In this document: one piece after another, positions 16,801 to 27,914 of the stretch
How the letters are laid out: each line of letters starts with the position of its first letter
Numbering within the stretch: position 1 is the first letter of the stretch
Assembly: GCA_903850505.1 (NCBI GenBank)
Contig: CAINLT010000006.1
Location: 15,536-79,535 of the forward strand
DNA length: 64,000 nt
Direction: 5' to 3'
Source: an uncultured Myxococcales bacterium
GTDB lineage: Bacteria > Myxococcota_A > UBA9042
Made by a program: the position numbers and the translations under genes
The notes under the pieces: generated by a model
Seen by the model: the letters and a program-made list of their open reading frames with translations, nothing else
Databases searched by the model: none
Told to the model about the DNA's origin: nothing

Positions 16801-18048
16801 GACGTCAACGGCGACGGGCTGAGCGACCTCGTCATCGGCGCCAAGACCGGCAGCGGCGTGCCGCGCGAAGTCTGGGTCTACCTCGGCAACAAGGGCGCGC
16901 AGTTGAATGCGACGCCAGCCGTGATCATCACGGGCGTCGTGGCGACGACCGCGACGGCGGCCGGACCGCAGCGCTTGCAGACCGTGGGCAACTTCAACGG
17001 CGACGTTTCAGCCAGCGGCAAGCCGGTCATGGACATCGCCGTGCGCAGCGCCAAGGACCTGAACTACGCACAGTCGGAGACGGTCTACGTGATTCCGGGC
17101 AATCCGGGCTGGTCCAACGCTTCTCCGCTGACCATCACGCTGACCAACGCGCTGGACCGCAGCAACAACAATATCGTCCGCGTGCGTTTGAGCGATGGCA
17201 CGAACACGTCGACGCTGTTTGGCCAGAACTTCCACGGCGGCAACGTGCTGCTGGAGAATGGCGGCGTCGGTCAGCAGTTTGACGAATTGGTCGTGTCGCA
17301 GCAGGCGTCGCCGCAGCAGGTCAACGTCATCCGCGGTCGTGAGCTGTCGGGCGCGCTCGACCTGATGATGACGTCGGCGAGCACGGGCGTGCAGCCCAAT
17401 GACGTGGACACGGTGCGCATCTTCCAACAGACCGGCACCGGCCAGCAGTCCTTTGGCGCCTACTTCGATCTCGTCGAGTTCGATGGCAAGCCCGGTCTTG
17501 ACCTGGCGATTCAGCACCAGACCGGCGGCGTGGCCGACCATCCCGGCTTCTACTGGCTGCGCGGCTCGGCCATTCAGGCTGCCGCTGTCGCGCCCCCGCA
17601 GAACACGATCACGCTGTACATCACAGCGGCGGTCGCGGGCTTCACGGATCTGTTCTCTGTGGGCGCTGGCTACCTCAGCTGGTCGTTCGTTTGGGGTCCG
17701 CAGAACACCGGGAATTTCTTTGATGATCCGAGCGCGGGCACGCACACGGACGTCATGTACGCGCGCCCGCCGTTCACCGGCGCCACGGGCGGTGGCCAAC
17801 AGGTCATCTTGCGCATGGCGGTGCCGCGGACGGAAACGGCCAATGAAGTTGGTTTCGTCTATGAAGACGTGGTGATCACCGACCCGTTCGTGCCGACCAA
17901 TAGCCTCTTCGGCTACAATGTCACGGCGCCCGGCGGTCTCGGTTTCGCACCAGCGGGAGACTTCAACAAGGACGGCTTCGTCGACCTGATCATCGGCTCA
18001 GCCGACGGCACAGGCGGCGTCAAGGGCAGCACGCTCATCGTTTACTAA
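10891..18048 (+). CDS. Giant surface lipoprotein: many Ig-like domains plus C-terminal FG-GAP/VCBS (integrin-alpha-like) repeats
   Basis: An ATG at 10891 gives MNSSDLRTRFTPLARQPMVWFSLLCAATALTAC, which contains a lipobox. This is followed by about 1900 aa of T/V/A/D-rich beta-sandwich-like segments. The C-terminus has GDLNGDGFADVGLGG, ADVNGDGLSDLVIGA and GDFNKDGFVDLIIGS. The track start 10735 is an over-extension into pqqD. Confidence 0.85.
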   Translation: MNSSDLRTRFTPLARQPMVWFSLLCAATALTACAPDTPAPHPACIWEDGCPSADAEGDGQVGDSSDVTTTVTRTLVFSIDTAIGPVLTGDVSIATIGPNADKDPATVGVQVDVSVTTGNVPDGAALEVLLDGVKVGSPQVVLNNAGRINGITLTCTATNAPHSISVRAIVNAAKGDAAVSKDKSLLVKCAQACTATVDPLSQSCLTQDQDPQTPGFQQSFIVHSDQPDCTDAYLLVVGPPGTPTETVHVALNGSTSVPVMATLAVDEAGLIGVTATVIGVVEDTNNPDRQSVPSAPVSAVITTEAPTIVLMQPASGQIKLSDDTDPATPGIQITLIGMATALTSADKNAIELYVDGTLTTKTTQQIDGQFVIPLSFTTTGTHALLVKATNGCGLSGQKSKSLAVFVDKAGLAILAPTQDVVLHVADDLDKTTADILDTTLSVAVTTETAGTDLEVYCKPKIAKAYPTTPTATVLYSDASLQTVDIPLSLSVSQLGQEIECRVQDNSPNQTVSAPVGFVAALPPPCLHVITPAAAVTVTTAGVEFLLATSGLDGQIVQGYLITPSGVPLDAVDLGTPVTNGLAGTFPLLDGGVQVPDGTYTLSFQAMDKWGNFAGQSLCSDVTRTVTIDTTPPTLVITLPVKATLTTLDDPDSDPAKPGYQIDVEVTITDAHVVCLNVDGVLFACNANVPEGAGVVVFHDVTLQPGLTALSVYGSDINGNTSAPAPTLVTLISDVPIVKFISPVGSLKVASDSVTFTVSVTSPTDGLPVTAATLEILQNSVAMPVTPTETAPGVYTFTLSGFSSGVTTVQVGAFVPALPDKKGYSGEITVTFKGDLPTATISSPTEGLVFNASNLTCALGQADCVLPVAATFTNVEDGSAVELTVTCGGSVSKTTGTVQGGNAKLANVKLLDQNACELSLAVTDAAGQTAVSAVIHVTVDRIAPAFGELKSPTPYGGLTLLAINDLDADPTNGMQVNWVQQIAGVPAGATVTCDVTDDLGKSAPGFSTNVATTTSDAVFESVSFGAITLPNGYNIKIVCTVKDLAGNQTQKTLLAQVLADLPQVIMSTPYPNADPCAGNGDCSFGGFCYQKICTAPWNKTSDRKLAFTTTGLPDGAAARLCTNTPGVTGTACATAGYVSIGSITVQKSAATFDLSNLADGSYHVMVEVFFAAKTTWVTSLDSGFLKGRERALLIDTVPPQVASVTGPSAPGVPAACLAAASQSVADGQQPGGKFQFQIAMANEDATVSLLVNNVSAGSLTTVGKSGALAVTIATEGTATFETVAVDLVGNVSDIQQLPSLFVDTIAPNGDFSTPAKSPLIVGDNRDVAVVSVNDDVENEPVTVKDLGLVKAAQNFIAGTALFPDATFGLLSEGSHTLTADLRDHCANTSTIGSTPAVVVVDTQPPTLAITAPSEGSLFTDNDDAAPAQSGYQVALTFSTTGAATWTLELGTDCDSGSLNCPSYQPAGTGTIANPGGLEAPVLVTVPFGNTVHYKFRLTAVDSAGNKTLATRGFDVLLSGCLVKLTGLPSNGMLNTQKCATPGQNCASVVVPLTASYVGPCGAATAIKLMKGGLEVATVTPSAQAAAFDVTIVDGDSTDLEAVVFEGLNAKGSSGKLGIAADLTNPTVSFAAATVLGSPTVSGTSALQGKDQDLNAGTPDHQVHMQLALADAHLNGGKLTALDRTVNGATAPLSNASVTPPVALTGAAQSLDVQYASLLADQVNTVKATVQDSFGNTGSATLVVTVDWLAPAAITLDALVPANLNPRRPSAKLTFQAVGDNGVTGTATSYQVRYAKKAFTTQAEFDAACDPSQIAGFTAVIPAASGTSDSVTISGPDGRNPTNLCKFTPLTDNGISSYYFAIVAVDAAGNKGPMSNVVSTDKLRLNYQRITNSGGTGSTYDQLAYRARVFGLGDLNGDGFADVGLGGGATTPFCILYGRAGNADIDLATEPATTLQCLPNAGGLGGVVGGPADVNGDGLSDLVIGAKTGSGVPREVWVYLGNKGAQLNATPAVIITGVVATTATAAGPQRLQTVGNFNGDVSASGKPVMDIAVRSAKDLNYAQSETVYVIPGNPGWSNASPLTITLTNALDRSNNNIVRVRLSDGTNTSTLFGQNFHGGNVLLENGGVGQQFDELVVSQQASPQQVNVIRGRELSGALDLMMTSASTGVQPNDVDTVRIFQQTGTGQQSFGAYFDLVEFDGKPGLDLAIQHQTGGVADHPGFYWLRGSAIQAAAVAPPQNTITLYITAAVAGFTDLFSVGAGYLSWSFVWGPQNTGNFFDDPSAGTHTDVMYARPPFTGATGGGQQVILRMAVPRTETANEVGFVYEDVVITDPFVPTNSLFGYNVTAPGGLGFAPAGDFNKDGFVDLIIGSADGTGGVKGSTLIVY

Positions 18049-18089
18049 TCAGGTCAATCAACGCCGACAAGGCGGCGAAGGGGAAACAC

Positions 18090-18266
18090 ATGAACCACAC
18101 GGAACACCAGCAGAACGTCCAACAAAGCCAGAGCGATCGGCAGACGGCGCGGCAGCCGTACGTCAAGCCGGAAGTCGAGACCTTGGGCGGCGCGCTGACC
18201 ACGCTGCTGGCGTCGGGCTGCCAGTGTGCGATTTGCCCGCCGGATCCCCAAGCGGACAACGTCTGA
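18090..18266 (+). CDS. Candidate RiPP precursor peptide (58 aa), not in the supplied ORF track
   Basis: My translation: MNHTEHQQNVQQSQSDRQTARQPYVKPEVETLGGALTTLLASGCQCAICPPDPQADNV. SD-like AAGGGG at 18078-18083, 6 nt before the ATG. Third-position G/C is high. Sits directly upstream of the kinase-like and rSAM/SPASM genes. Confidence 0.6.
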   Translation: MNHTEHQQNVQQSQSDRQTARQPYVKPEVETLGGALTTLLASGCQCAICPPDPQADNV

Positions 18267-18268
18267 AC

Positions 18269-19105
18269 GTGACGCGCGCGTTGGCCCCTTCCTTTCGGCG
18301 TTGGGCGTCGCGATTTGGCGACTCGGCCTATGCGGTGGACCTGCCGGACGCGTTTGGCACCGTGCGCCGTCCGTGGCGCGGGCCTGTCGACGCGGATCTC
18401 GTCTTCCAGTTTGCTGCTGAAGCCACCGCGGCACCTTTGGGCGAAGCAGCGACGAAGTTCTCGCGCCTCGACGCCGATGGCTTTGCGTTTACCGCGGCGT
18501 CGTGCCACGGCGCGGGTTGCTGGGCGGAGCGCGCTGGGACCGTCTACCTGCACGACGGCGAGCAATCGCCGCTGACCCGCGTCCAGATGCTGCAGGAGGC
18601 GCTGTTTGCCCCGGTTTACGGCCAGTTGCTCCTGCAAGGCGGCCTGCTCCTGCACGCCGCGACGCTGTGGATCGATGGCCACGCCTACGTGGTGGCGGGC
18701 TACTCGACCGCCGGCAAGACGACCCTGAGCGCGCGATTCGCGCCGAATTGGCTGAGCGATGAGCACGCGTTCCTCGCCCGCGATGGCGACAAGTGGCAGG
18801 TCCTCCGCCACATTGATTTCCGCGGCAACGAAGGCGATTTTCCCTGGCGCGCGCCGCTCGCCGGTCTGCTCTGGCTCGGTCCGGATCGCAGCCAGTCGCG
18901 GGTCACGCCGTTGTCGCCGGGGGACGCGCTGCAGCGGCTCCTGCCGCAGGCTTTGGTCGCAGGTCCGCCGACTTCCGCGCTTGTGCTGGACGCTGTCGCA
19001 CACCTGTGTCAGCAATTGCCGGTGATGGAACTGAGCCACAACCTTGCAACTTCCGTTGCAGACTTGGCGGAAATGATCGCGGGAGCGAGCCATGGCACAA
19101 GGTGA
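18269..19105 (+). CDS. HPr kinase/phosphorylase-related P-loop protein (HprK-related kinase family)
   Basis: LLLHAATLWIDGHAYVVAGYSTAGKTTLSARF...LSDEHAFL matches the HprK C-terminal-domain pattern H-G/A..x..G.g.l..G.S..GK[ST]. A GTG at 18269 lies 3 nt after the precursor stop. The track start 18224 would overlap the precursor core. Confidence 0.65.
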   Translation: MTRALAPSFRRWASRFGDSAYAVDLPDAFGTVRRPWRGPVDADLVFQFAAEATAAPLGEAATKFSRLDADGFAFTAASCHGAGCWAERAGTVYLHDGEQSPLTRVQMLQEALFAPVYGQLLLQGGLLLHAATLWIDGHAYVVAGYSTAGKTTLSARFAPNWLSDEHAFLARDGDKWQVLRHIDFRGNEGDFPWRAPLAGLLWLGPDRSQSRVTPLSPGDALQRLLPQALVAGPPTSALVLDAVAHLCQQLPVMELSHNLATSVADLAEMIAGASHGTR

Positions 19106-20279
19106 TGACGCCAGCCAGCTCGACGGCTTTCTCACGGCGCTGAGGGCGGCGTGGGCAACCGAAGACCGCCCGGTCAGCGCGCACCTGGACGTGACGTATC
19201 GCTGCGACCTCGATTGCGCGCACTGCTACCTCGACAACCGGACGACCTGGCCGGAGATGACCACGGCGGAGTGGCTCGACGTGCTGCAGCAATTGCACGA
19301 CGCGGGTGTCCTGTTCCTCGTTTGGAGCGGCGGCGATGTGCTGATGCGCAGCGATTTTGCCACGCTCCTGACGCGCGCCGCGGAGCTGGGCCTGCTGAGC
19401 CGCGTGAAGACCCACGGCGGCCAAGTCGACGCCACGTGGGCGCGCCTGTTCGCAGACAGCAAGGTCATCCGCACCGACGTCAGCGTGTACAGCTTGCGTC
19501 CTGAGATCCACGACGCGCTGACGCGGCGACCGGGTTCGCTCGTCAAAACACTCAACGGCGTCGCGGCATTGCGGGCAGCGGGCGTGCCGGTCAAGGTTTC
19601 CTGCTGGGTGCAGCCGGCGATCATCGACGAGATTGCCGCGCTGAGTCAGCACTTCACCGCGATGGGCTGCACGATCAGCTTTGAGACGCGCACGACGCTG
19701 GACCTTTCGGCGTCGGCCAACCTGGACGCGATGCGACTGGAGGGCGACGATCTCCTGCGGGCGCGCGTCGCGATCCTGCGGGCGCAGCCAGTGGCCAAAC
19801 CGACCGCGATCGCCGATCGGACGGTCCACGATCCTTGCGGCGCGGGGCGGACGCTCGTGTACATCAGCCCGGACGGCGAGCTGTGGCCGTGCATCAACTT
19901 TCCCATGGCGCTTGGCAACCTGCGCGAGAAGCCGTTGCTGGAGATCTGGCGCGAATCCGCAGCGCGCAAGAGCCTCGTCGCGTGGGACAACCGCGCGCGG
20001 ACGACGTGCCAAAGCTGCGCCGGCAGCGGCTTCTGCTTTTTCTGCCCCGGCGACGCGTACAAGACCACCGGCGATTTCCGCAAAGCGCCCGATGTCTTCC
20101 ACGCCGAAACACGTGCCAAGATGATCGCGTGGGAGCAGGTCAACGGCGACACGTTCAGCGCCGCGGACTGGTCCAGCGTGCCGGACGAAAGCGGCCGCGC
20201 GCCTGCCGCCAAACAGTTCATCTTCCCGATCCACCGGCCGAAACGCGGCGCCGGCGCTCGGGTCACGCAGGCCAAATGA
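19092..20279 (+). CDS. Radical SAM / SPASM-domain peptide-modifying enzyme
   Basis: VTYRCDLDCAHCY provides CxxxCxxC, and WSGGDVLM is a GGE-like SAM motif. The C-terminal SPASM-like cysteines are CGAGRTLVYISPDGELWPC ... CQSCAGSGFCFFCPGDAY. Overlaps the kinase gene by 14 nt. Confidence 0.85.
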   Translation: MAQGDDASQLDGFLTALRAAWATEDRPVSAHLDVTYRCDLDCAHCYLDNRTTWPEMTTAEWLDVLQQLHDAGVLFLVWSGGDVLMRSDFATLLTRAAELGLLSRVKTHGGQVDATWARLFADSKVIRTDVSVYSLRPEIHDALTRRPGSLVKTLNGVAALRAAGVPVKVSCWVQPAIIDEIAALSQHFTAMGCTISFETRTTLDLSASANLDAMRLEGDDLLRARVAILRAQPVAKPTAIADRTVHDPCGAGRTLVYISPDGELWPCINFPMALGNLREKPLLEIWRESAARKSLVAWDNRARTTCQSCAGSGFCFFCPGDAYKTTGDFRKAPDVFHAETRAKMIAWEQVNGDTFSAADWSSVPDESGRAPAAKQFIFPIHRPKRGAGARVTQAK

Positions 20280-20680
20280 CGCTCACGTGGCACGATCTGA
20301 CCGGGCGGTCCATGTGGCCATTGGGGGCGCCGATGCAGGCTGGCGTGGCGCCGGTCGCGGCAAAGTCGCTGCATGTCGGCGACGTCATTGCCTTCATCGC
20401 CAGCGACGCGCCGGTCCTCTGGCTGCATCGCGTCGTGCGGGTTGAAGCGGGTGCGATCGTCACGCGTGGCGACACCAACGGCTACGACGATCCGCCGGTG
20501 CCGTTCGCCGCGGTGCTTGGGCGGGTTGAAGCGGTGCGGATCGGCACGCTTGTGCTGCCGCTGCCGCATTCCGGTCGCCTCGGCGCGCTGCATCGCCGCG
20601 CTGGTCTCGCGTGGTCGCATCTCGCGCCGGCCTTGCGCCGTTTGCCCGCGGTGCGGGGGCGGACACGAAAAGGCGCATGA
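20276..20680 (+). CDS. Soluble S24/S26 (SipW/Sec11-like, S26B-type) serine peptidase domain protein
   Basis: 134 aa. GRSMWPL corresponds to the G-S-M-x-P nucleophile box. LHRVVRVEAGAIVTRGDTNGYDDPPV matches the H-R-[IV]...T-K/R-G-D-x-N...D..P box. No N-terminal TM anchor. The ATG overlaps the rSAM stop (ATGA at 20276-20279). Confidence 0.6.
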   Translation: MTLTWHDLTGRSMWPLGAPMQAGVAPVAAKSLHVGDVIAFIASDAPVLWLHRVVRVEAGAIVTRGDTNGYDDPPVPFAAVLGRVEAVRIGTLVLPLPHSGRLGALHRRAGLAWSHLAPALRRLPAVRGRTRKGA

Positions 20681-21693
20681 CGATCCTTGACAGGAGCGAA
20701 CGCCAAGGTACTGTGACCGGGGGCGCGCCGCAGGTGGCGCCATCGGGTGCTGTGTTGAAATCAACTGTGACTTCAGGCTATTGCCAACACCTATCCACAA
20801 CCCTGATCGCACGGGCGATTCGCTTGAGCGCGCCGGTTGTTTTGCTGGGTCTGCCGGCATGCGCCAACGATCAGCTCGCGCAGGTACGCCACGATGCCAC
20901 GGCGATGCGGGAAGAGCTCGCGGAAGTGAAGCGCAGCCAGACTGCGTCCCGCATCCAGTTCGAAGAACTGCGCAATCGACTCATCCTGATTGAAGACAAG
21001 GCCGACTCAGAAAAGGTCGCCCGCGCCCGCCGCGAAGAGTGGATTCCGCGGCTGCCGACGGTGAAAGTGGGCGAACCCGATGCCCATGTCGACGCCCGCG
21101 ACCAGGTTGGCCTGCCATCCAGCATTCCCAAGATGGACATGCCGCAAAAGGACATGCGCTCGGCCAACCAGCTGAGCGCGCAGACGATTCACCTGACGCA
21201 TGATGATCCGCTGCCCGGCGAAGCGAACGACGATCCCGTCGAAGTTTCCGGTCCAGCCGATGAGACGCCGCCGCAGGCCGCTGGCGCCAAGGCCAAGCTC
21301 GATCCGACCGCGTCGCTGTACGAAAAGGCCAAGTCGCTGTTTGATCAAGGGCAAATCGCCGAGTCGCGGCGGGTCTTTGAGACGCTGCACCGCCAGTACC
21401 CGCGGCATGATCTTGCCGACAACGCGCTCTACTGGATCGGTGAAGGCTACTACGCCCAAGCGCAGTGGCTCACGTCCGCCCAGGCATTCCTGCGGGTCGC
21501 CAAAGAATATCCGCGCGGCAACAAAGTGCCGGATGCAATGCTGAAAATGGCTTTGTGCTACCGCAAGTTGGGCGACGATCGCGGCGCGGACGACGTGCTG
21601 AAACAGTTGACGCGGCTGTATCCGGGTACGGAAGCGGCGGACAAGGCGACGGCGATGAAGAAGACGTCCGCCGATGGCACGGCTCAGCCGTAA
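20677..21693 (+). CDS. YbgF/CpoB-like TPR protein (coiled-coil N-terminus, C-terminal TPR)
   Basis: The C-terminus LYEKAKSLFDQGQIAESRRVFETLHRQYPRHDLADNALYWIGEGYYAQAQW...YPRGNKVPDAMLKMALCYRKLGD is the YbgF-type TPR signature. Possible signal/lipobox VVLLGLPAC. The start is uncertain: ATG 20677, or GTG/TTG around 20752-20767. Confidence 0.7.
   Translation: MTILDRSERQGTVTGGAPQVAPSGAVLKSTVTSGYCQHLSTTLIARAIRLSAPVVLLGLPACANDQLAQVRHDATAMREELAEVKRSQTASRIQFEELRNRLILIEDKADSEKVARARREEWIPRLPTVKVGEPDAHVDARDQVGLPSSIPKMDMPQKDMRSANQLSAQTIHLTHDDPLPGEANDDPVEVSGPADETPPQAAGAKAKLDPTASLYEKAKSLFDQGQIAESRRVFETLHRQYPRHDLADNALYWIGEGYYAQAQWLTSAQAFLRVAKEYPRGNKVPDAMLKMALCYRKLGDDRGADDVLKQLTRLYPGTEAADKATAMKKTSADGTAQP
20687..20714 (+). 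promoter_or_regulatory. Candidate sigma70-like promoter for the downstream TPR/LysM genes
   Basis: TTGACA (20687-20692), a 16-nt spacer, then TACTGT (20709-20714). The next ~80 nt have visibly A/T-richer third positions, suggesting non-coding leader. Pattern only. Confidence 0.25.
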
Positions 21694-21744
21694 GAACCGG
21701 TGTCTGTGGCGTTGCCGGATGCGATGCCAGAAGTGGAGCGGAGA

Positions 21745-22908
21745 ATGTCGGGCATGTTGGCCAAAATCTGCAAGACGCTGCTGCCGATCGCGGCGTTGCT
21801 CGGGGCGTTGACCGTGCAGGCCCAGGAGCTGCCGGATCGCACCGCGCCGGCCATCGCGATGCAGCAATCCGCGCCCAGCGGCGAGCGGACGTACGTGGTG
21901 GAAGCGGGCGACACGCTGTGGAGCATCGCGGAAGGCCTGTACGATGAGCCGTGGTACTGGCCGTCGCTGTGGTCCTACAACCCGCAAATCACCAATCCGC
22001 ACCTGATTTACCCGGGCGATCTGCTGTACCTGAGCCGCAAGAGCTCGCAGACCGCGGCGGAGAAATCCATCACGTTTGCGACGTCCCGCTACGAGCCGCG
22101 GCCCAAGAGCGGCATCGAATTGGTGCGCCGCGTGGGCTACATCTCCTCGCGCGACTACCGCGAATCCGGGGTGCTGGAAGCGAGCCGTGAAGAGCGCAAC
22201 ATGCTCGGCCAGCTCGACGAGGGCTATGTCCGCTTCAACACGCGGCGCTGCGCTGAGGACGACAAGGCCAAGGCGGAACGCGACGCGTTTCGTGCCAGTG
22301 AAGACGGTGAGGCCAAGCGCGACGAGAAGAAGTCCGACGACGACGAAGATGAAGCGCTGGTCGGACCGTGCGTGCGCGACGGCGATCGCTACACGCTGTA
22401 CCGGGTCGAGCGCGAGATCGTTCACCCGATCACCGGCAAGCGCGTCGGCTACAAGATCAACTTCCTCGGCGACGCCAAGGTGCTGAGCACGGTGCGGCCT
22501 CTCGTCAGCGTGCTGATCACCCGATCGCACAGCGAAATCAGCCGCGGCGACTTGCTGACCAACGTGTTTGAGCCGCTGCAGCTTGTGACGCCCTTGCCCA
22601 ACAAGGTGCAAGTCGCGGGCGTGATCCTCGATTTCCACCATGAAACGACGGCGGCGGGCGCTTACAGCTACGTCTACATCGACAAAGGCGCGGACGACGG
22701 CGTGGAAAAGGGCAACCGCTTTGAGATTGTCTGGCGCGGCGACGGCTTGGCGCGCGGCAATGTCGGCAACCTGAAAGACTACCCGGACGAGCAGATTGGC
22801 GTCGCGATGGTCGTGGAAGCGTACGATCGCCACAGTCTGGCGCTCCTCACGACGACCGTGCGGGAACTTGAACGCGGCATGCCGGCGATCATGGCCAAGG
22901 GCTTCTGA
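21745..22908 (+). CDS. LysM domain-containing secreted protein
   Basis: Signal-like MSGMLAKICKTLLPIAALLGALTVQAQE. LysM motif YVVEAGDTLWSIAEGLY...NPHLIYPGDLLYL. The track start 21700 is a possible alternative. Confidence 0.8.
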   Translation: MSGMLAKICKTLLPIAALLGALTVQAQELPDRTAPAIAMQQSAPSGERTYVVEAGDTLWSIAEGLYDEPWYWPSLWSYNPQITNPHLIYPGDLLYLSRKSSQTAAEKSITFATSRYEPRPKSGIELVRRVGYISSRDYRESGVLEASREERNMLGQLDEGYVRFNTRRCAEDDKAKAERDAFRASEDGEAKRDEKKSDDDEDEALVGPCVRDGDRYTLYRVEREIVHPITGKRVGYKINFLGDAKVLSTVRPLVSVLITRSHSEISRGDLLTNVFEPLQLVTPLPNKVQVAGVILDFHHETTAAGAYSYVYIDKGADDGVEKGNRFEIVWRGDGLARGNVGNLKDYPDEQIGVAMVVEAYDRHSLALLTTTVRELERGMPAIMAKGF

Positions 22909-23025: not shown

Positions 23026-24912
23026 ATGTACTTGGAATGGCTCGACAACGAGGGCGAGTTGGCGCGGCTGCCGCTGGATCCGGCGATGGAAGCCGTGACG
23101 ATCGGCCGCGGTCAGGCGTCCACGATCTACTCCAAAGAGACTTCCGTCTCCCGCAACCACGCCCGCATCGGCTGGGAGCCGTCTGGCTACTACATCAAGG
23201 ACCTCGGTTCGTCCAACGGCTCGTTCATCAACGGCGAACGCGTGCAACGCGGCCAACTGCGTGAAGGCGACGTGGCGCGGTGCGGTGAAGTGCTGGAGAT
23301 CCACATCTTCCCCGGATCGCCGCCGGACGCCAAGCAGAAGACCATGCACCTGGTGGATAAGGCGACAAGTCGCGCTGCGCCTCCACCGGCCACGGCAAAA
23401 AGCACGGATCGCGAAGTCCTGGTGGCTGCAGCGCGCGCTGCACGGCTGGGCCAGGCCGGCGGTGGCCTGCGCACCGATGCCCGTCCGGTTGAGCCGACGC
23501 CCGTCCGCGAGGTCTCCCGCCCGCAGATGGACGGCCGGGGCAGCGCGCCGCGCCCGGATCCGCGCGTTGTGACACCGCCGCCTGCGGCCGATCCAACCTT
23601 TCGCGCGCCGGTCCAGGCCGCGCACCCGGACGCCCAGCGGCGGATCGCTCAACTGGAGGATCAGCTCAACGCCGCCCGCGCCGCGCTGACCAAGGCGGAG
23701 AACGACGCGAAGGCCGTGGACGCGCGCTCCATGCGCTATTCCGTGGAGTTGGACGGCCTGAGCGACAAGTACGTCAAGCTCAAAGAGCACAACCAGGTGC
23801 TCAGCCAGGAGCTGGAGAAGACCCGCAGCGAGCTGCGGAACCGGGAAGACGAGTCGTTTGAGGCGAATCGCGCCGTCGAAGAGCTGAAGAGCCAGATTGG
23901 CCAGGCGCGTGAGAAAGCGGCGGATGCGACCGAGCAGCTGTCCGGCCTGAAAGTGCGGATCACCCAGAAGGATCGGCAAATCGAGGAGCTGCAGCGGCAG
24001 CTGGACCTGCTGGAGTATGAACTGCGCGCGGCGCGCGACGAAAATGACAGCCTGCAGTCGAGCTTCAACCGCGAAGGCGGCGACATGAGCCGGCTGGAGC
24101 GCAAGATCAACCTGCTGCAGGAAGTGATCCAGGAGAAAGAGGCGCTGATTGAGCAGCTGCGGATCGACCTGCGCGACAAGGACACGGAGATTCGCCAGGT
24201 GCGCATGGGCGTGGGCATCTCCGACCTGGAGCACGAGAAGCGGCGGCTGCTTGAGGACTACCATCAGGCGACGCGGCGCGTGGACGAGTTGAATGACCGG
24301 CTGCTCCAGCAGACCCGCCAGACGGAGACGCTCAAGGGCGAGCTGGACGTGGCGCGCGACGCGGTGGAGCGCAAGCCCGCGGCGCTGGCTGACGTGACGG
24401 AGCACCCGGATTTCAAGGCCAAGCTGCGCGAAGTGGAGCGGGCGCGCGAGGAGGTCAGCCAACTTCAGCGCGATCTGGCGAAGGCCGATTTGCGGCTGGA
24501 GACGACCGCGGCGGATCTGGCGCAGCAGAAAAGCGCGGCCGCAGAATCGCAAGTGGCGCAAAAACGCGTCGAAGCGCTCGAACTCAAGCTGCAGGAGACG
24601 GAAGCGCGGCTGAACGATGCGCTGACGACGCCCAAAGCGTCCGCGCTGCCGCCGGATCTCGCCGATGGCATCGAGAGCCTGTTGGACGCCGCCGTGGCTG
24701 CGCGGTCGAACGCCGCCGTGGTGCGCCGCTATGCCGAGGACCTGCAGGCGCAGCGCAGCAAGTGGCCAGAGCTGGCGGACACGCTGGAGCTTGTCAACGA
24801 CATCGCCAGCGTGCTGGCCAACGATCTGGCTGAACAAACGCGGACGCTGGAAGTGTTGCACCGCAAGGTCGTGACGCTCAGCCCGCCGCCCGCCGAAGGA
24901 AACGCCGCATGA
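23026..24912 (+). CDS. FHA domain protein with long coiled-coil C-terminal region
   Basis: N-terminal FHA signature TIGRGQAS....VSRNHARI......YIKDLGSSNGSFINGERV. About 400 aa of heptad-like E/R/L/Q-rich sequence follow. Confidence 0.85.
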   Translation: MYLEWLDNEGELARLPLDPAMEAVTIGRGQASTIYSKETSVSRNHARIGWEPSGYYIKDLGSSNGSFINGERVQRGQLREGDVARCGEVLEIHIFPGSPPDAKQKTMHLVDKATSRAAPPPATAKSTDREVLVAAARAARLGQAGGGLRTDARPVEPTPVREVSRPQMDGRGSAPRPDPRVVTPPPAADPTFRAPVQAAHPDAQRRIAQLEDQLNAARAALTKAENDAKAVDARSMRYSVELDGLSDKYVKLKEHNQVLSQELEKTRSELRNREDESFEANRAVEELKSQIGQAREKAADATEQLSGLKVRITQKDRQIEELQRQLDLLEYELRAARDENDSLQSSFNREGGDMSRLERKINLLQEVIQEKEALIEQLRIDLRDKDTEIRQVRMGVGISDLEHEKRRLLEDYHQATRRVDELNDRLLQQTRQTETLKGELDVARDAVERKPAALADVTEHPDFKAKLREVERAREEVSQLQRDLAKADLRLETTAADLAQQKSAAAESQVAQKRVEALELKLQETEARLNDALTTPKASALPPDLADGIESLLDAAVAARSNAAVVRRYAEDLQAQRSKWPELADTLELVNDIASVLANDLAEQTRTLEVLHRKVVTLSPPPAEGNAA

Positions 24913-26561
24913 GCCAGTCGCCAGTCGCCGCCGCCGCCGAACAGTCGCCCCATCGTCCGGTGCCCACGGCGGTCGACGAGCTGCACTACCTCATCCGCGC
25001 GCAGTACAAGCTGCTCTACGTCGTGTCCGCCGAAGAGGAGCGCGTGGAGCGCTGGCTGGGTGAATTGGCGACGCTGGAGAGCAAGCCGCTGCGCGAGCGC
25101 TGGGACGTCACGGCGTGGCAGGCGCGGCAGCTGATTCACTGGTCCTGCTCGCAGGGCTTTCGTTGCGCGTCGATGGACGTGCCCGGCGACGTGCGCGACC
25201 CGATTCGCGCGCTGGACTGGATCGCCAACAACTTGCAGCGCGACGCCATCGTGGTGCTGCGCGATTTCCACCCGTTCCTGAACGATCCGATGGTCGCGCG
25301 GCGCGTGCGTGATTTGCCGCACTTGTTCGCCGATGGCACGGCCAAGCGCTCCGTGGTGTTCCTCAGCCCGATCGTCAAGATTCCGGCGGAGATGGAGAAA
25401 GACCTGGTCGTGGTCGATTTTGACCTGCCGGATCGCCAGACGCTGGAAGACATCGTGCGCGATCAGGCTTTCGCGGGCGCGGCGTCGCAGCGCTTTGGCA
25501 AGAATTTCCAGAAAGTGCTGGAGAACCCCGCGCTGCAGCGGGAAATCGCGGAGGCAGCGCTTGGCTTGACGGAGCAGGAAGCGCGGCAGGTCTTCCAGAA
25601 GACGAGCGTGCGGGACAAGGGCTTTCACCTGCCGACGATCCTGCAGGAAAAGAAGCACATCATCCGCAAGTCGGGAATTCTCGAGTTCTACGAGACGGCG
25701 CTCGGCATGGAGTCCGTCGGCGGGCTGCAGCTGATGAAGGATTGGCTGAACAAGCGCCGCCACGCGTTTTCGCCCGCGGCCCAGGAATTTGGCTTGCCGG
25801 CGCCCAAGGGAATCCTGCTGCTGGGCGTGCCTGGCTGCGGCAAGTCCCTGTCGGCAAAAGCGATTTCTCAGGCGTGGCAGATGCCGCTGTTGCGGCTGGA
25901 CGTGGGCAAGGTGTTTGGCTCGCTGGTCGGCTCGTCAGAAGAGAACATGCGTAAGGCCATCAAGACCGCGGAAGCCGTGGCGCCGGCGATCCTGTGGCTG
26001 GATGAGCTGGAGAAAGGCTTCTCGGGCACGAAGTCGTCGGGGCAGTCCGATGGCGGCACGACGGCGCGCGTGTTCGCGACGTTCCTGACGTGGCTGCAGG
26101 AGAAGTCCTCGCCGGTTTTTGTGATTGCGACGGCGAACGACGTCAGCCAACTGCCGCCGGAGCTGCTGCGCAAAGGCCGCTTTGATGAAATCTTCTTCGT
26201 GGACCTGCCCAACAAGTCCGAGCGCGAGGAAATCCTCAAGATCCAGCTGCGCAAGCGCCATCGCGCGCCGGAGACGTTCGACATGAAGCGGCTTGTGGAT
26301 GCGACGTCGGGCTTCTCGGGCTCGGAGTTGGAAGAGGCGGTGGTCGGCGCGCTGTACGATACGTTTGACGTGAGTCAAGGCCAGACGGACATCCACACCG
26401 ACGAATTGGTGGCGGCGTGCCGCGAGGTGATTCCGCTGAGCCAGACGATGCGCGAACGGCTGGCGGAGATGCGCGAATGGTCCAAGTCGCGCGCGCGGCG
26501 GGCGTCGCCGGCGGATGACGCGTCCTCGGGCAATGAAACGGCGCCGAAGCTGGAAATGTAA
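24909..26561 (+). CDS. AAA+ ATPase, Ycf46-like
   Basis: Walker A GILLLGVPGCGKSL and Walker B AILWLDELEK, with an N-terminal domain of about 270 aa. The ATG overlaps the FHA stop (ATGA at 24909-24912). Confidence 0.85.
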   Translation: MSQSPVAAAAEQSPHRPVPTAVDELHYLIRAQYKLLYVVSAEEERVERWLGELATLESKPLRERWDVTAWQARQLIHWSCSQGFRCASMDVPGDVRDPIRALDWIANNLQRDAIVVLRDFHPFLNDPMVARRVRDLPHLFADGTAKRSVVFLSPIVKIPAEMEKDLVVVDFDLPDRQTLEDIVRDQAFAGAASQRFGKNFQKVLENPALQREIAEAALGLTEQEARQVFQKTSVRDKGFHLPTILQEKKHIIRKSGILEFYETALGMESVGGLQLMKDWLNKRRHAFSPAAQEFGLPAPKGILLLGVPGCGKSLSAKAISQAWQMPLLRLDVGKVFGSLVGSSEENMRKAIKTAEAVAPAILWLDELEKGFSGTKSSGQSDGGTTARVFATFLTWLQEKSSPVFVIATANDVSQLPPELLRKGRFDEIFFVDLPNKSEREEILKIQLRKRHRAPETFDMKRLVDATSGFSGSELEEAVVGALYDTFDVSQGQTDIHTDELVAACREVIPLSQTMRERLAEMREWSKSRARRASPADDASSGNETAPKLEM

Positions 26562-26573
26562 CGGGAGGCCCGC

Positions 26574-26984
26574 GTGTCGCATTTCACGACAGTCCAGACC
26601 AAGATTACCAGCCTGACCCGGCTGGAGCAGGTGCTGACGGAGTTGAAATTCAACTTCTCCAAGGCGGAAGCCGGGCAACTGTTGAACGTCAACGGCTATC
26701 TGGGACAAAAAGCCCAGGCGCAGATCGTCATCCACGCGTCCCGGACGTACGACATCGGCGTGAACGTGGACGCCCAGACCGGCGCGGCGACGTTTGTGGC
26801 GGACTGGGAATTCGTGGAGACGACGGCGGGCTACACGCAGGCTGAATTCACCAAGAAGATCATGCAGCGCTACGCCTACCACACGGTCAAAGAAGAAGTG
26901 ACCAAGCGCGGGTACACGCTGGAAGAGGAAAAAGTGGACGGCGAAGGCCATATCCACGTCAAAGTCTCGTCGTGGGGAGATTGA
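26574..26984 (+). CDS. DUF1257 (Ycf35-like) protein
   Basis: GTG start with GGGAGG 6 nt upstream. The MSHFTTVQTKI... N-terminus and the ..QRYAYHTVKEE...GYT..EE motif match my memory of the Ycf35/DUF1257 family. Confidence 0.75.
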   Translation: MSHFTTVQTKITSLTRLEQVLTELKFNFSKAEAGQLLNVNGYLGQKAQAQIVIHASRTYDIGVNVDAQTGAATFVADWEFVETTAGYTQAEFTKKIMQRYAYHTVKEEVTKRGYTLEEEKVDGEGHIHVKVSSWGD

Positions 26985-26987
26985 GCC

Positions 26988-27191
26988 ATGGCACAACGGC
27001 GGGAAATCCAGTTCACGATTGATGACAACGGCGAAGTGTCGATCCAGGTGCTCGGCGTCAAGGGCGCGGAGTGCGAGAAGCTGACGCGCGAGATGGAAGA
27101 AGCGCTGGGCATCGTGACGACGCGGCAGCATACCAGCGAGTATTGGCAGGCGGCGGAGACGGCCGTGAAGTTGGAGCAAGGCGAGGAATAG
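26988..27191 (+). CDS. DUF2997-like small protein
   Basis: 67 aa. EIQFTIDDNGEVSIQVLGVKGAECEKLTREMEEALG fits the DUF2997 pattern I-x-f-x-I-x-x-d-G-x-V....G..G..C...T..lE.aLG. Starts 3 nt after DUF1257 and has an SD. Confidence 0.65.
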   Translation: MAQRREIQFTIDDNGEVSIQVLGVKGAECEKLTREMEEALGIVTTRQHTSEYWQAAETAVKLEQGEE

Positions 27192-27194
27192 CCC

Positions 27195-27914
27195 ATGCCT
27201 GAAGCCCGCGCCCGCGACCTCCTCCACCAGCCGCTCGCGTGGCCGCTGGCGCGCGCGATCCGCCGACAGCAGCGTTTCTCCCGCGCGCACCTGCCGCTGG
27301 ACACGCAAAAACGTCGGATCGACCAGTTTTGCGTGTTTTCCCCGCATGATTTTCAAGCTGATCGGCTGACTGCATGGCTGGAGACGCACAGCTCGTTCAA
27401 GGAAACCTACGCGCGCGGTTTTCGCGTCAAGAGCGACAATGAGATTCCGGGCGACGTGCTCGAGGCGATCCAGCACGAGCACATGCCGCAGTTCAACTTG
27501 CGCAACATTGGGCGGGCGGAACGCGACGTCGAACTGGACGACCCACTGCCGCTGCAGCGCCAGCGCGGGATTGGCGGCCAGCTGGGCGCGGAGCTGGATG
27601 AAGTGCGCGAGGCGAAGGTGCCAAAGCCGCAGATGGCCGAAGTGTGGTCGGTGCGGCTGATGGGGCGGGTGCGCGGCAGCCTGCAGCGGATCCTGGTGGA
27701 AGACCCGTGGGAGCTGCGGCTGGGACCAGAGGCGACCTCAGGCCACGAGGGGCGGAGCTATCAGTTCGTGGCCGAAGGCACGCACCCGCACGATTTGCCC
27801 GACGCGTGGTGGGGACCGGAGCCCGTGCCGATGGCGGAGAACCGGATCGCCGCGCCGCCGGGTGAAGAGGAGACCGGGGACGTGATGGCGATGATGCGCG
27901 AGCTGACGAAGTGA
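27195..27914 (+). CDS. Hypothetical protein, last gene of the FHA/AAA/DUF1257/DUF2997 operon
   Basis: ATG 3 nt after the DUF2997 stop, with GAGGAA upstream. Third-position G/C is high along most of the ORF. No motif recognised. Confidence 0.55.
   Translation: MPEARARDLLHQPLAWPLARAIRRQQRFSRAHLPLDTQKRRIDQFCVFSPHDFQADRLTAWLETHSSFKETYARGFRVKSDNEIPGDVLEAIQHEHMPQFNLRNIGRAERDVELDDPLPLQRQRGIGGQLGAELDEVREAKVPKPQMAEVWSVRLMGRVRGSLQRILVEDPWELRLGPEATSGHEGRSYQFVAEGTHPHDLPDAWWGPEPVPMAENRIAAPPGEEETGDVMAMMRELTK

What the first reader, a model, noticed from the sequence alone, without database searches (positions are those of the whole stretch)
23026..27914. Five-gene operon FHA, Ycf46-like AAA+, DUF1257 (Ycf35-like), DUF2997 and unknown: a conserved but functionally undescribed module in a myxobacterial context
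The genes are packed tightly. The FHA stop overlaps the AAA start (ATGA at 24909-24912), and the following gaps are 12, 3 and 3 nt, each with its own SD. From memory, the AAA/DUF1257/DUF2997 trio recurs in cyanobacteria (ycf46/ycf35 neighbourhood) and other phyla without a known mechanism. Here it has an N-terminal partner with a phospho-Thr-binding FHA domain plus about 400 aa of coiled coil, and a fifth 239-aa protein with no recognisable motif. That composition suggests a signalling-regulated ATPase machine and not simple housekeeping.
Basis: partly seen in the sequence, partly recalled or inferred. Interest (0 to 1): 0.68.

Follow-up and report, generated by a model that had tools for sequence, protein, structure and literature searches.

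The report
FHA-gated AAA+ ATPase module, injection-system relative
This is a real, tightly conserved five-gene operon in an uncultured myxobacterium, built around a protein-unfolding ATPase and two small partner proteins of unknown function (relatives of the algal plastid genes ycf46 and ycf35); in other bacteria the same gene set sits inside gene clusters for phage-tail-like injection machines, which gives the first concrete lead to what these proteins do.

Summary
Five co-directional ORFs lie at exactly the stated coordinates, with an ATGA overlap and 12, 3 and 3 nt gaps. Pfam recovers FHA, AAA, DUF1257 and DUF2997 above threshold. The fifth protein (X) matches no known family, but it is a conserved and rare family.

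Synteny is strong:
- All five genes are kept in every sufficiently long relative of the window's clade of freshwater Myxococcota MAGs.
- FHA-coiled-coil, AAA, DUF1257 and DUF2997 are kept across Myxococcota (DUF1257/DUF2997 47/47, FHA-CC 36/39).

New findings:
- In Polyangia/Haliangium-type Myxococcota and in Spirochaetes, the same AAA/DUF1257/DUF2997/FHA set is embedded in contractile-injection-system (CIS) clusters. These contain baseplate J, P2-I, sheath, tube, hub and eCIS_core genes.
- The trio also travels on a Bacillus plasmid and on viral contigs.
- DUF1257 and DUF2997 are fused into one ORF in two viral contigs.
- The window holds no homologue of the CIS proteins searched with.

Best reading: a phosphothreonine-recruited AAA+ unfoldase with a DUF1257/DUF2997 cofactor pair. 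It is a free-standing version of a CIS-associated ATPase module, with a lineage-specific fifth subunit or client. The target is unknown. I rate it a new variant of a known kind, of moderate to high interest.

The parts
23026..24912 (+). Gene 1: FHA-coiled-coil protein (628 aa). It has an FHA domain, a variable Pro/Ala-rich linker (res ~101-200) and a long coiled coil (res ~200-600).
   Evidence: ORF. Pfam FHA 9.7e-17. Only coiled-coil-type matches for res 200-600. Found directly upstream of the AAA in 13/13 loci of the window's clade and 36/39 other Myxococcota loci.
23095..23274 (+). FHA domain (res 24-83) with the canonical phosphothreonine-binding residues G27, R28, S42, R43, H45, S62 and N64.
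   Evidence: Pfam. Conservation in 48 homologues: G27 48/48, R28 48/48, S42 46/48, R43 48/48, H45 41/48, S62 48/48, N64 48/48. That these positions bind pThr is established FHA knowledge, not tested here.
23923..24165 (+). Most conserved coiled-coil block (res ~300-380); candidate docking segment.
   Evidence: Blocks of 20 residues covering 301-340 and 361-380 are 33-40% identical to distant clades, against ~10-20% for much of the remaining coiled coil. It lies within the only coiled-coil segment retained (res 287-393) in the natural short form of L006.
24909..26561 (+). Gene 2: AAA+ ATPase (550 aa), made of a family-specific N-domain (res ~20-285) and one classical AAA module.
   Evidence: ORF. 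phrog_8638 matches the full length at 8.7e-138. At least 596 genomic loci encode relatives of the N-domain.
24966..25763 (+). AAA N-domain (res 20-285), with conserved motifs IRARYPLLYVVS.EE.RV, LRDFHPF, RRLRDL, IP.ELEKE..V.D..LP, AALGLT..EAE, EK.QIIRKSG.LEFY and VGGL..LK.WL.KR.
   Evidence: Alignment A1 of 16 sequences from several phyla. No solved homologue by sequence. Weak but topologically consistent similarity to the family's own AAA module (hhalign E 0.019, probability 2.4%), so a degenerate D1 is only suggested.
25812..26204 (+). AAA module (PF00004, res 302-432). It carries Walker A GVPGCGKS (K312), pore loop 1 L-V-G-S-S-E (339-344), Walker B D365-E366, sensor-1 N410 and Arg fingers R421/R424.
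   Evidence: Pfam 9.9e-30. These residues are invariant in alignment A7. The best solved relatives are the D2 domains of p97/Cdc48 (E ~1e-53).
26574..26984 (+). Gene 3: DUF1257 (Ycf35-type) protein, 136 aa, with an invariant N-terminal Met-Ser-His.
   Evidence: Pfam 6.9e-20. Invariant M1 S2 H3 G41 Y59 D77 E82 Y100 G113 in 33 sequences. AF2 model pLDDT 91 with no significant PDB fold match. Follows the AAA in 16/16 and 47/47 Myxococcota loci.
26988..27191 (+). Gene 4: DUF2997 protein, 67 aa, with invariant G15, G26, C29 and E37.
   Evidence: Pfam 1.2e-16. Alignment A3. Follows DUF1257 in all Myxococcota loci with room. Fused to DUF1257 in viral contigs L093 and L095.
27195..27914 (+). Gene 5: protein X, 239 aa, a lineage-restricted family with motifs AWPL, PQFxLRNIGRxE, EVRxA, EDPWE, EGTHPDD and WGP.
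   Evidence: No hit in four profile libraries or the PDB. 29 clusters among 5.8e9 proteins. 71 representatives among 1.84e9. Alignment A4. AF2 confidence is low, pLDDT 52. Present in 14/14 loci of the window's clade; a shorter core is present in 19/39 other Myxococcota loci.
20611..22908 (+). Conserved neighbours; their membership of the module is uncertain. A TPR lipoprotein-like gene (20611-21693) and a LysM protein with a signal peptide (21700-22908).
   Evidence: Pfam. The pair lies upstream of the module in the window's clade and downstream of it in L026 and L032. A lipobox-like LGLPAC and a signal peptide are read from the sequence.

Best explanation
The operon encodes a cytoplasmic, phosphothreonine-recruited AAA+ protein-remodelling machine.

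Proposed parts and roles:
- The 550-aa ATPase forms a ring that threads or unfolds a client through its pore loops. This is inferred from intact classical-AAA motifs.
- DUF1257 and DUF2997 form a small heteromeric cofactor that works obligately with the ATPase. This is inferred from invariant gene linkage and natural fusion.
- The FHA-coiled-coil protein is a long dimeric scaffold. Its FHA domain docks on a Thr-phosphorylated partner, phosphorylated by a kinase encoded elsewhere. This places or switches on the ATPase, in the way Fha1/TagH does for the type VI secretion system.
- Protein X, which is poorly predicted and restricted to this lineage, is a lineage-specific adaptor or the client itself.

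The module is the free-standing form of an ATPase module that is built into contractile-injection-system gene clusters in Polyangia-type Myxococcota and in Spirochaetes. There it most likely does what Afp15/Pvc15-type ATPases do, namely handle or load proteins for the machine. In the window's lineage it is detached from such genes and presumably acts on another client, still unknown.

Shown: gene content, synteny, conserved catalytic and pThr-binding residues, CIS embedding in relatives, and the DUF1257-DUF2997 fusion.

Inferred: ring formation, unfolding activity, complex formation, phospho-regulation, and the role of X.
For: - Operon and domains.
- AAA motifs are invariant (Walker A/B, pore loop, sensor 1, Arg fingers), and the closest solved relatives are p97/Cdc48 D2 unfoldase modules.
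- FHA pThr-binding residues are conserved in 41-48 of 48 homologues.
- Linkage: DUF1257 and DUF2997 follow the AAA in 16/16 (window's clade) and 47/47 (other Myxococcota) loci; FHA-CC precedes it in 13/13 and 36/39.
- The trio is also linked on a B. cereus plasmid (AAA-DUF2997). In 13 of 17 viral contigs DUF1257 and/or DUF2997 lies within a few kb of the AAA (both in 9).
- Single-ORF DUF1257-DUF2997 fusions occur in L093 and L095.
- CIS embedding in Treponemataceae L060: DUF1257, Tail_P2_I, FHA, VWA, sheath, two tube genes, hub, Fer4_12, AAA, gpV-PAAR spike.
- CIS embedding in T. succinifaciens pTRESU01: VgrG/Pvc8, AAA, gpV.
- CIS embedding in Haliangium-type L078 and L043: Baseplate_J, P2_I, three FHA genes, FHA-CC, AAA, DUF1257, DUF2997, eCIS_core, pentapeptide.
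- The same CIS genes are found in about 12 Polyangia-type and about 13 spirochaete loci.
- Precedents: Pvc15 is needed for payload loading and unfolds signal-peptide-tagged cargo (PMC11495950). Afp15-like ATPases occur in more than 85% of eCIS loci (PMC6899500). Fha1/TagH is activated by PpkA and interacts with ClpV (PMC13584744).
- A Ser/Thr kinase lies within about 6 kb in 6 of about 15 CIS-embedded Myxococcota loci.
Against: - No homologue of the spirochaete sheath, tube, hub, P2-I, VWA or associated proteins used as queries is found in the 64-kb window or within 10 kb of any locus of the window's clade, and the nearest flanks are unrelated genes. The link to CIS is therefore by homology and synteny in relatives only.
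- No kinase or phosphatase is found in the window.
- The direction of evolution (detached from CIS, or recruited to CIS) is not resolved. The NJ tree has no support values, and the outgroups (plasmid, phage) are not CIS-linked.
- The relative L006 keeps a short FHA protein and X but lacks the AAA, DUF1257 and DUF2997. FHA and X can therefore persist without the ATPase.
- No interaction was modelled or measured.
- The X model is low confidence, and the DUF1257 fold has no solved relative. No structural support exists for an adaptor role.
- In Chloroflexota, Armatimonadota and one unidentified genome the AAA stands alone.
Confidence: 0.45

Rival explanations
1. The module is still the ATPase of a contractile injection system encoded elsewhere in the same genome. 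It acts in trans to load cargo or to assemble or recycle the machine. X would be a cargo or a loading adaptor.
For: The same AAA/DUF1257/DUF2997/FHA set is inside CIS clusters in two phyla. In Haliangium-type loci the gene after DUF2997 is an eCIS_core (DUF4157) protein, which is the same position that X occupies here. Pvc15 is dispensable for assembly but needed for loading, a function that could be supplied in trans.
Against: No homologue of the CIS proteins searched with is found in the 64-kb window or in the 10-kb flanks of 17 window-clade loci and about 35 other stand-alone Myxococcota loci. X is unrelated to the eCIS_core family (hhalign probability 0.4%). The rest of the genome could not be examined.
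Confidence: 0.22
2. DUF1257 and DUF2997 are not adaptors. They are the functional core of a redox or Fe-S-linked stress system, like cyanobacterial Ycf35/Ycf46, and the AAA matures, remodels or regulates them. Under this reading the CIS association is a secondary recruitment.
For: Cyanobacteria keep duf2997-ycf35 next to ferredoxin fed7 (PMC4284462). A radical-SAM-like Fer4_12 gene sits next to the AAA and DUF2997 in spirochaete CIS clusters, on a B. cereus plasmid and on viral contig L108. DUF1257 has an invariant N-terminal Met-Ser-His and DUF2997 has an invariant Cys, which would fit metal binding or catalysis. The ycf46 operon of Synechococcus is induced under severe oxidative stress (bioRxiv 10.1101/2025.07.21.665879). 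ycf35 and ycf46 each show habitat-linked presence or absence in red-algal plastids (PMC5940233).
Against: No Fe-S or radical-SAM gene belongs to the Myxococcota modules; the rSAM/SPASM gene upstream in the window belongs to a separate ScmC-type cluster. Metal binding is pure inference. No solved fold relative exists to support an enzymatic role.
Confidence: 0.15
3. It is an anti-phage defence system built on an IetA-like AAA ATPase.
For: PADLOC IetA and NCBIfam IteA models match the AAA module (1.6e-24 and 4.4e-21). Relatives occur on plasmids and phages.
Against: The matches cover only the generic AAA module (res 292-512) and fall far below the NCBIfam cut-off (75.5 bits against 510). There is no IetS-type protease, and the other four proteins have no defence-family match apart from coiled-coil-type hits of FHA-CC. 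Within the window's clade the locus is fixed between the same TPR/LysM and ppk genes in most members with enough flank, which indicates vertical inheritance and not a defence island.
Confidence: 0.05

Closest known systems
Afp15 / Pvc15 / Cis15 AAA+ ATPases of extracellular contractile injection systems
   Same: Both are classical-clade AAA ATPases with one active C-terminal AAA module and a non-catalytic N-terminal part. Close homologues of the window protein (39-49% identity over the N-domain) are encoded inside CIS clusters in Spirochaetes and Polyangia-type Myxococcota. The expected activity is the same: unfolding or handling proteins for a larger assembly.
   Different: Pvc15 is about 698 aa with N, D1 and D2. 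This protein is 550 aa with one Pfam AAA hit and a family-specific N-domain that has no solved relative. The window holds no homologue of the CIS proteins searched with. DUF1257, DUF2997 and FHA partners were not found described for Afp/PVC systems in the searched literature. No direct sequence comparison with Afp15/Pvc15 was possible.
Type VI secretion threonine-phosphorylation pathway (PpkA-PppA-Fha1/TagH) with ClpV
   Same: An FHA-domain protein is genetically coupled to an AAA+ ATPase in a contractile-machine context. Fha1 is activated by a Ser/Thr kinase and interacts with ClpV. The CIS-embedded relatives carry three or four FHA genes, a VWA gene and often a nearby kinase.
   Different: The ATPase here is a p97-D2-like classical AAA, not a Clp/Hsp100. 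The FHA protein carries a coiled coil of roughly 400 aa. No kinase or phosphatase is linked in the window. No T6SS genes are present.
Ycf46 (AAA) and Ycf35 (DUF1257) of cyanobacteria and red-lineage plastids
   Same: Gene 3 is a DUF1257 protein with the same invariant N-terminal MSH reported for Ycf35 (PMC13060386). DUF2997 is adjacent to ycf35 in cyanobacteria and cyanophage. Full-length AAA homologues occur in cyanobacteria at 33-41% identity over 89-92% of the protein.
   Different: In cyanobacteria the AAA is not reported next to ycf35/DUF2997, and FHA-CC and X are absent. None of the proteins has a known mechanism.
Cdc48/p97 with its cofactor proteins
   Same: The AAA module is most similar to p97/Cdc48 D2 (E ~1e-53). 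The logic is the same: an unfoldase ring whose specificity comes from small cofactors bound to an N-terminal domain.
   Different: There is no double-psi barrel N-domain and no second active AAA module. The cofactors are unrelated (DUF1257 has no solved fold relative). No ubiquitin-like tag is evident.
IetAS anti-phage system (IetA ATPase)
   Same: The AAA module is similar.
   Different: Similarity is limited to the generic AAA module. There is no protease partner, and the locus is inherited vertically within the window's clade.

Membership tests
FHA domain (PF00498) | Profile match above the curated cut-off | tested here: met
   61.6 bits against a cut-off of 20.7, res 24-83.
FHA domain (PF00498) | Conserved pThr-binding residues (Gly-Arg, Ser-x-x-His, Asn loops) | tested here: met
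   G27, R28, S42, H45, S62 and N64 are present in the window protein and conserved in 41-48 of 48 homologues. Binding itself was not tested.
Classical AAA ATPase (PF00004) | Walker A, Walker B, sensor 1, second region of homology with Arg fingers, and pore loop 1 | tested here: met
   104 bits. K312, D365/E366, N410, R421/R424 and the V-G of the pore loop are invariant or nearly invariant in A7.
Ycf46 family | Full-length similarity, including the N-domain, to cyanobacterial or plastid Ycf46 | tested here: inconclusive
   Cyanobacterial plasmid-borne homologues show 33-41% identity over 89-92% of the protein. JGI labels relatives 'SpoVK/Ycf46/Vps4 family', which is only a broad COG name. No reference Ycf46 (for example Slr0374) was available.
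DUF1257 / Ycf35 (PF06868) | Profile match above the cut-off and the N-terminal MSH motif | tested here: met
   71.6 bits against a cut-off of 22.2. M1-S2-H3 is invariant. The motif is reported for Ycf35 in PMC13060386.
DUF2997 (PF11211) | Profile match above the cut-off | tested here: met
   60.7 bits against a cut-off of 24.1.
eCIS ATPase (Afp15/Pvc15/Cis15) | Encoded within a CIS gene cluster (sheath, tube, baseplate) | tested here: not met
   No CIS homologues are found in the 64-kb window or in the flanks of the window's clade. The feature is met by homologues in Spirochaetes and Polyangia-type Myxococcota.
eCIS ATPase (Afp15/Pvc15/Cis15) | N-D1-D2 architecture of about 700 aa with a degenerate D1 | tested here: inconclusive
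   The protein is 550 aa with one PF00004 hit. The N-domain shows only a weak, topologically consistent match to an AAA module. The Pvc15 architecture is taken from PMC11495950.
eCIS ATPase (Afp15/Pvc15/Cis15) | Sequence orthology with Afp15/Pvc15 | not testable with these tools
   No Afp15 or Pvc15 sequence or solved structure was available in the collections searched.
T6SS threonine-phosphorylation pathway | Linked Ser/Thr kinase and PP2C phosphatase, and a ClpV-type ATPase | tested here: not met
   No kinase is found in the window. The ATPase is p97-D2-like, not Clp/Hsp100.
IetAS defence system | IetA ATPase above the family cut-off plus an IetS protease partner | tested here: not met
   NCBIfam IteA gives 75.5 bits against a cut-off of 510. 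PADLOC gives no IetS-type match for the other four proteins (DUF1257, DUF2997 and X have no match; FHA-CC only coiled-coil-type matches).

The most novel reading that the evidence does not exclude
The Ycf46-like AAA, DUF1257 (Ycf35) and DUF2997 form one ancient, mobile three-protein machine. It is found in phages, plasmids, injection-system clusters, Myxococcota operons, cyanobacteria and plastids, and it has a single biochemical activity not yet described. In this reading the invariant N-terminal Ser2-His3 of DUF1257 and the invariant Cys of DUF2997 form a catalytic or metal/Fe-S site served by the ATPase, so the pair is not a plain adaptor. The myxobacterial FHA-CC/X operon would then be a phospho-regulated version of a new enzyme-chaperone system, and would explain two plastid 'ycf' genes that have had no function for decades.
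Probability: 0.18. Interest if true: 0.82.

Novelty: new variant of a known kind. Interest (0 to 1): 0.6.

Why it matters
Ycf35 (DUF1257), DUF2997 and Ycf46-type ATPases are widespread, yet no mechanism for them turned up in the literature searched.

This locus and its relatives show three things:
1. The three genes are inherited as one unit across a whole phylum and on mobile elements.
2. Two of them are naturally fused in some viruses.
3. The unit is a built-in part of some contractile injection systems, together with FHA-type phospho-signalling.

That turns an open annotation problem into testable hypotheses: complex formation, unfoldase activity, cargo handling and phospho-gating. The work could be done in culturable relatives such as Haliangium, Treponema succinifaciens or Bacillus cereus plasmid carriers.

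It also points to an accessory layer of injection-system biology (FHA/VWA/kinase regulation plus DUF1257/DUF2997) that I did not find described in the literature searched. This is relevant to engineering these machines for protein delivery.

Tried and rejected
1. Structure of X: AlphaFold2 with a 26-sequence alignment gave pLDDT 52 and pTM 0.21. This is too poor for a fold search, so none was run.
2. X against known families: nothing in Pfam, NCBIfam, PADLOC, PHROGs or PDB profile searches, including distant members. X against the eCIS_core proteins that occupy its position in Haliangium gave hhalign probability 0.4%, so they are unrelated.
3. DUF1257 fold: the model is confident (pLDDT 91), but Foldseek found no significant PDB match (best E 0.057, TM about 0.3) and only one viral DUF1257 homologue.
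4. Profile searches of the AAA N-domain, DUF1257 and DUF2997 against PDB sequences found nothing significant.
5. N-domain as a degenerate AAA D1: hhalign gave only E 0.019 and probability 2.4%. This is suggestive and not usable as proof.
6. The promoter/terminator scan was uninformative in this GC-rich DNA, and there were no Rfam hits.
7. Defence-system reading: rejected (see rivals).
8. Tape-measure protein reading of FHA-CC (phrog_167, 2.5e-11): judged to be coiled-coil composition similarity, because SMC, MukB and Rad50 models hit the same region.
9. Looking up the 100%-identical DUF1257 protein P0219 to find the source contig returned no record.
10. Kinase enrichment near the window's clade: not found.
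11. A literature search for CIS in Myxococcota or Treponema returned nothing relevant.

Full report
OBSERVATION

The five ORFs exist exactly as described, all on the + strand: 23026-24912 (628 aa), 24909-26561 (550 aa), 26574-26984 (136 aa, GTG start), 26988-27191 (67 aa) and 27195-27914 (239 aa). The ATGA stop/start overlap and the intergenic gaps of 12, 3 and 3 nt, each preceded by a purine-rich Shine-Dalgarno-like stretch, are visible in the sequence.

Pfam gives FHA (9.7e-17), AAA (9.9e-30), DUF1257 (6.9e-20) and DUF2997 (1.2e-16), all well above the curated cut-offs. Nothing matches the fifth protein, and NCBIfam, PADLOC and PHROGs add no family for it. Third-position GC is 0.82-0.86 in all five genes.

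The flanks are unrelated genes. Upstream lie an rSAM/SPASM gene, a TPR lipoprotein-like gene and a LysM gene. Downstream lie a peroxiredoxin, ppk, ppx and an FG-GAP protein on the opposite strand. The gaps of 117 nt upstream and 127 nt downstream delimit the unit.

WHO CARRIES IT

A scan of one genome per species, using a profile of the ATPase's N-terminal domain, found at least 596 loci. Among the best 80, sixteen form a close group (70-97% identity). They come from uncultured freshwater Myxococcota MAGs, and three of them carry obviously wrong Klebsiella or Enterobacteriaceae labels. Identity then drops to 49% or less for other Myxococcota and for Spirochaetes.

SYNTENY

I searched six-frame ORFs of all loci with iterated profiles of the five window proteins.

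| Clade | DUF1257 + DUF2997 after the AAA | X | FHA-CC upstream |
|---|---|---|---|
| Window's clade | 16/16 with room | 14/14 | 13/13 |
| Other Myxococcota | 47/47 | shorter core in 19/39 | 36/39 |

Independent gene calls on metagenome contigs show the same five genes with different outer flanks. This is far beyond chance. It defines a four-gene core (FHA-CC, AAA, DUF1257, DUF2997) plus a lineage-restricted fifth gene.

THE PARTS

FHA-CC
- The canonical pThr-binding residues are conserved in 41-48 of 48 homologues.
- A variable Pro/Ala-rich linker follows the FHA domain.
- The long coiled coil has its best conserved block at about residues 300-380.

The ATPase
- It has an intact Walker A, Walker B, pore loop (L-V-G), sensor 1 and Arg fingers, invariant across phyla.
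- It is closest to the D2 unfoldase modules of p97/Cdc48.
- Its N-domain of about 270 aa carries sharply conserved motifs and has no solved relative.
- The N-domain shows only a weak resemblance to an AAA module.

DUF1257
- It has an invariant N-terminal Met-Ser-His and a few other invariant residues.
- Its AlphaFold model is confident (pLDDT 91) but matches no solved fold.

DUF2997
- It has an invariant Cys, two invariant Gly and one invariant Glu.

X
- It is a real conserved protein with motifs such as PQFxLRNIGRxE, EDPWE and EGTHPDD.
- It is a rare family: 29 clusters among 5.8 billion proteins, and 71 representatives among 1.84 billion.
- It is poorly predicted by AlphaFold (pLDDT 52).

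THE KEY CONTEXT

In spirochaete loci the homologous ATPase sits in a contractile-injection-system cluster. For example, Treponemataceae L060 reads: DUF1257, Tail_P2_I, a 515-aa protein, FHA, VWA, sheath, gp19-type tube, CIS tube, hub, a Fer4_12 radical-SAM-like protein, the AAA, then a gpV-PAAR spike.

On the plasmid of the cultured Treponema succinifaciens, the ATPase lies between genes annotated as VgrG/Pvc8-family and gpV.

In Haliangium-type Myxococcota the order is: Baseplate_J, Tail_P2_I, the same protein of about 515 aa, FHA, VWA-FHA, FHA, FHA-CC, AAA, DUF1257, DUF2997, an eCIS_core (DUF4157, HExxH) protein, and a pentapeptide-repeat protein.

Homologues of these CIS genes occur in about 12 Polyangia-type and about 13 spirochaete loci. 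These Polyangia-type loci are among those in which X is not detected. None occurs in the window, in the window's clade, or in the other stand-alone Myxococcota loci, apart from stray VWA-type hits in L037 and L062.

The shared order P2_I, 515-aa protein, FHA, VWA ... AAA ... DUF2997 ... pentapeptide in two phyla shows that these clusters are homologous as wholes.

An NJ tree of the ATPases gives (plasmid, (Spirochaete-CIS, (window's clade, (Polyangia-CIS, stand-alone)))) with the phage sequence as root. The tree has no support values and the outgroups are not CIS-linked. I therefore treat the relationship as solid and the direction (detached from CIS, or recruited into it) as open.

THE TRIO ELSEWHERE

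- A B. cereus plasmid carries Fer4_12, two unknown genes, the AAA and DUF2997.
- Of 17 IMG/VR viral contigs with the ATPase, 13 have DUF1257 and/or DUF2997 within a few kb.
- In two of those contigs, DUF1257 and DUF2997 are one ORF in the same order as in the window. This is classic fusion evidence that the two proteins work together.
- Cyanophage P-SSM2 and cyanobacteria have the DUF2997-DUF1257 pair without the ATPase.
- Mycobacteriophages of the Corndog type (Catdawg) have the ATPase alone.
- In Chloroflexota, Armatimonadota and one unidentified genome the ATPase is solitary.

MECHANISM

I commit to the following, at a confidence of about 0.45:
- The ATPase is a ring unfoldase or remodeller.
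- DUF1257 and DUF2997 form its obligate small cofactor.
- FHA-CC is a phosphothreonine-reading scaffold that positions or switches on the machine.
- X is a lineage-specific adaptor or client.

The precedents are:
- Pvc15 and Afp15, which are needed for loading and unfolding of cargo in injection systems.
- Fha1/TagH, which is activated by a Ser/Thr kinase and contacts ClpV in type VI secretion.

A kinase lies near 6 of about 15 CIS-embedded myxobacterial loci, but none lies in the window. The signal would therefore have to come from a kinase encoded elsewhere.

The target in the window's lineage is unknown. Rival readings are: an in-trans role for a CIS encoded elsewhere (0.22), a redox or Fe-S-linked system centred on DUF1257/DUF2997 (0.15), and defence (0.05).

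A natural variant, L006, sits in the same chromosomal neighbourhood. It keeps a 222-aa FHA protein and X with an ATGA overlap, but it lacks the ATPase, DUF1257 and DUF2997. The FHA protein consists of the FHA domain plus a coiled-coil segment that includes the conserved block. This argues that FHA-CC and X interact directly, and it cautions that they can function, or at least persist, without the ATPase.

COMPARISON AND NOVELTY

By function the module most resembles an Afp15/Pvc15-type ATPase module with T6SS-like FHA control. By membership it fails the defining context feature in the window (no CIS genes), and it differs in architecture.

DUF1257 membership is firm. 'Ycf46-like' remains unverified for lack of a reference sequence.

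No paper in the searched library describes this gene set or links DUF1257 or DUF2997 to injection systems or to FHA signalling. I rate it a new variant of a known kind, with interest 0.6. It is not a new principle, but it gives a concrete and testable handle on three widespread protein families of unknown function, and on an accessory layer of injection-system biology that I did not find described in the literature searched.

Noticed in passing
L006 9336-10711 (ENA ERZ19026175 scaffold_147): A relative in the same neighbourhood (FG-GAP giant protein, ScmC, rSAM/SPASM, TPR, LysM ... ppk) has only a 222-aa FHA protein directly overlapping X. That protein is the FHA domain plus the coiled-coil segment matching window residues 287-393. 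The AAA, DUF1257, DUF2997 and most of the coiled coil are missing, so this is a natural FHA+X-only variant.
   Followed up: partly
L093 7161-7763; L095 9386-10057 (IMG/VR contigs): Single ORFs in which a DUF1257 domain (starting MSH) is fused to a C-terminal DUF2997 domain, next to the Ycf46-like AAA.
   Followed up: yes
L060 9366-9962; L088 13336-13944; L089 5068-5709; L108 10532-11182: A small radical-SAM-like Fer4_12 (4Fe-4S single-cluster) gene recurs next to the AAA/DUF2997 in spirochaete CIS clusters, a B. cereus plasmid and a viral contig. It is absent from the Myxococcota modules. Together with the cyanobacterial duf2997-ycf35-fed7 cluster, this hints at an Fe-S or redox connection.
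   Followed up: partly
window 26574-26582 (and alignment A2): The N-terminal Met-Ser-His of DUF1257 is invariant in 33 sequences from two phyla. It is also reported for plastid Ycf35. It may be a catalytic or metal-binding N-terminus.
   Followed up: no
window 20611-22908; L026 14878-17057; L032 14327-16788: An exported TPR lipoprotein-like gene and a LysM gene form a pair. The pair is upstream of the module in the window's clade and downstream of it in two distant stand-alone loci, which suggests a possible link to the cell envelope.
   Followed up: partly
window 10735-20279; L006 1-6695: Upstream lies a conserved cluster: a protein of about 2400 aa (a 2437-aa ORF here; its L006 counterpart has faint FG-GAP/Big_13 hits), a likely ScmC-family gene (the window ORF 18224-19105 was not checked) and an rSAM/SPASM maturase (19092-20279). 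It looks like a peptide-modification system unrelated to the finding.
   Followed up: no
L008, L012, L013 (CAMDBH010000042.1, CAYHHL010000005.1, CAYURO010000005.1): MAG contigs labelled Klebsiella pneumoniae or Enterobacteriaceae carry the myxobacterial five-gene locus at 81-86% identity over the AAA N-domain. The labels or the binning are almost certainly wrong.
   Followed up: no
L001 3896-5674 (Mycobacterium phage Catdawg gp97): Corndog-type mycobacteriophages (34 Mycobacterium-phage records matched) encode a full-length homologue of the ATPase (31% identity, N-domain included). No DUF1257 or DUF2997 is found in the 9.6 kb examined around Catdawg gp97.
   Followed up: partly
L078 12322-12993; L043 8492-9124: The eCIS_core (DUF4157) proteins that follow DUF2997 in Haliangium-type clusters carry a conserved HELTHVAQ (HExxH) motif, as in zinc metallopeptidases. 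A pentapeptide-repeat gene follows them, and this gene is also conserved in the spirochaete clusters.
   Followed up: partly
window 58094-58621 (- strand): A second, unrelated AAA-module match lies elsewhere in the window. It was not examined.
   Followed up: no
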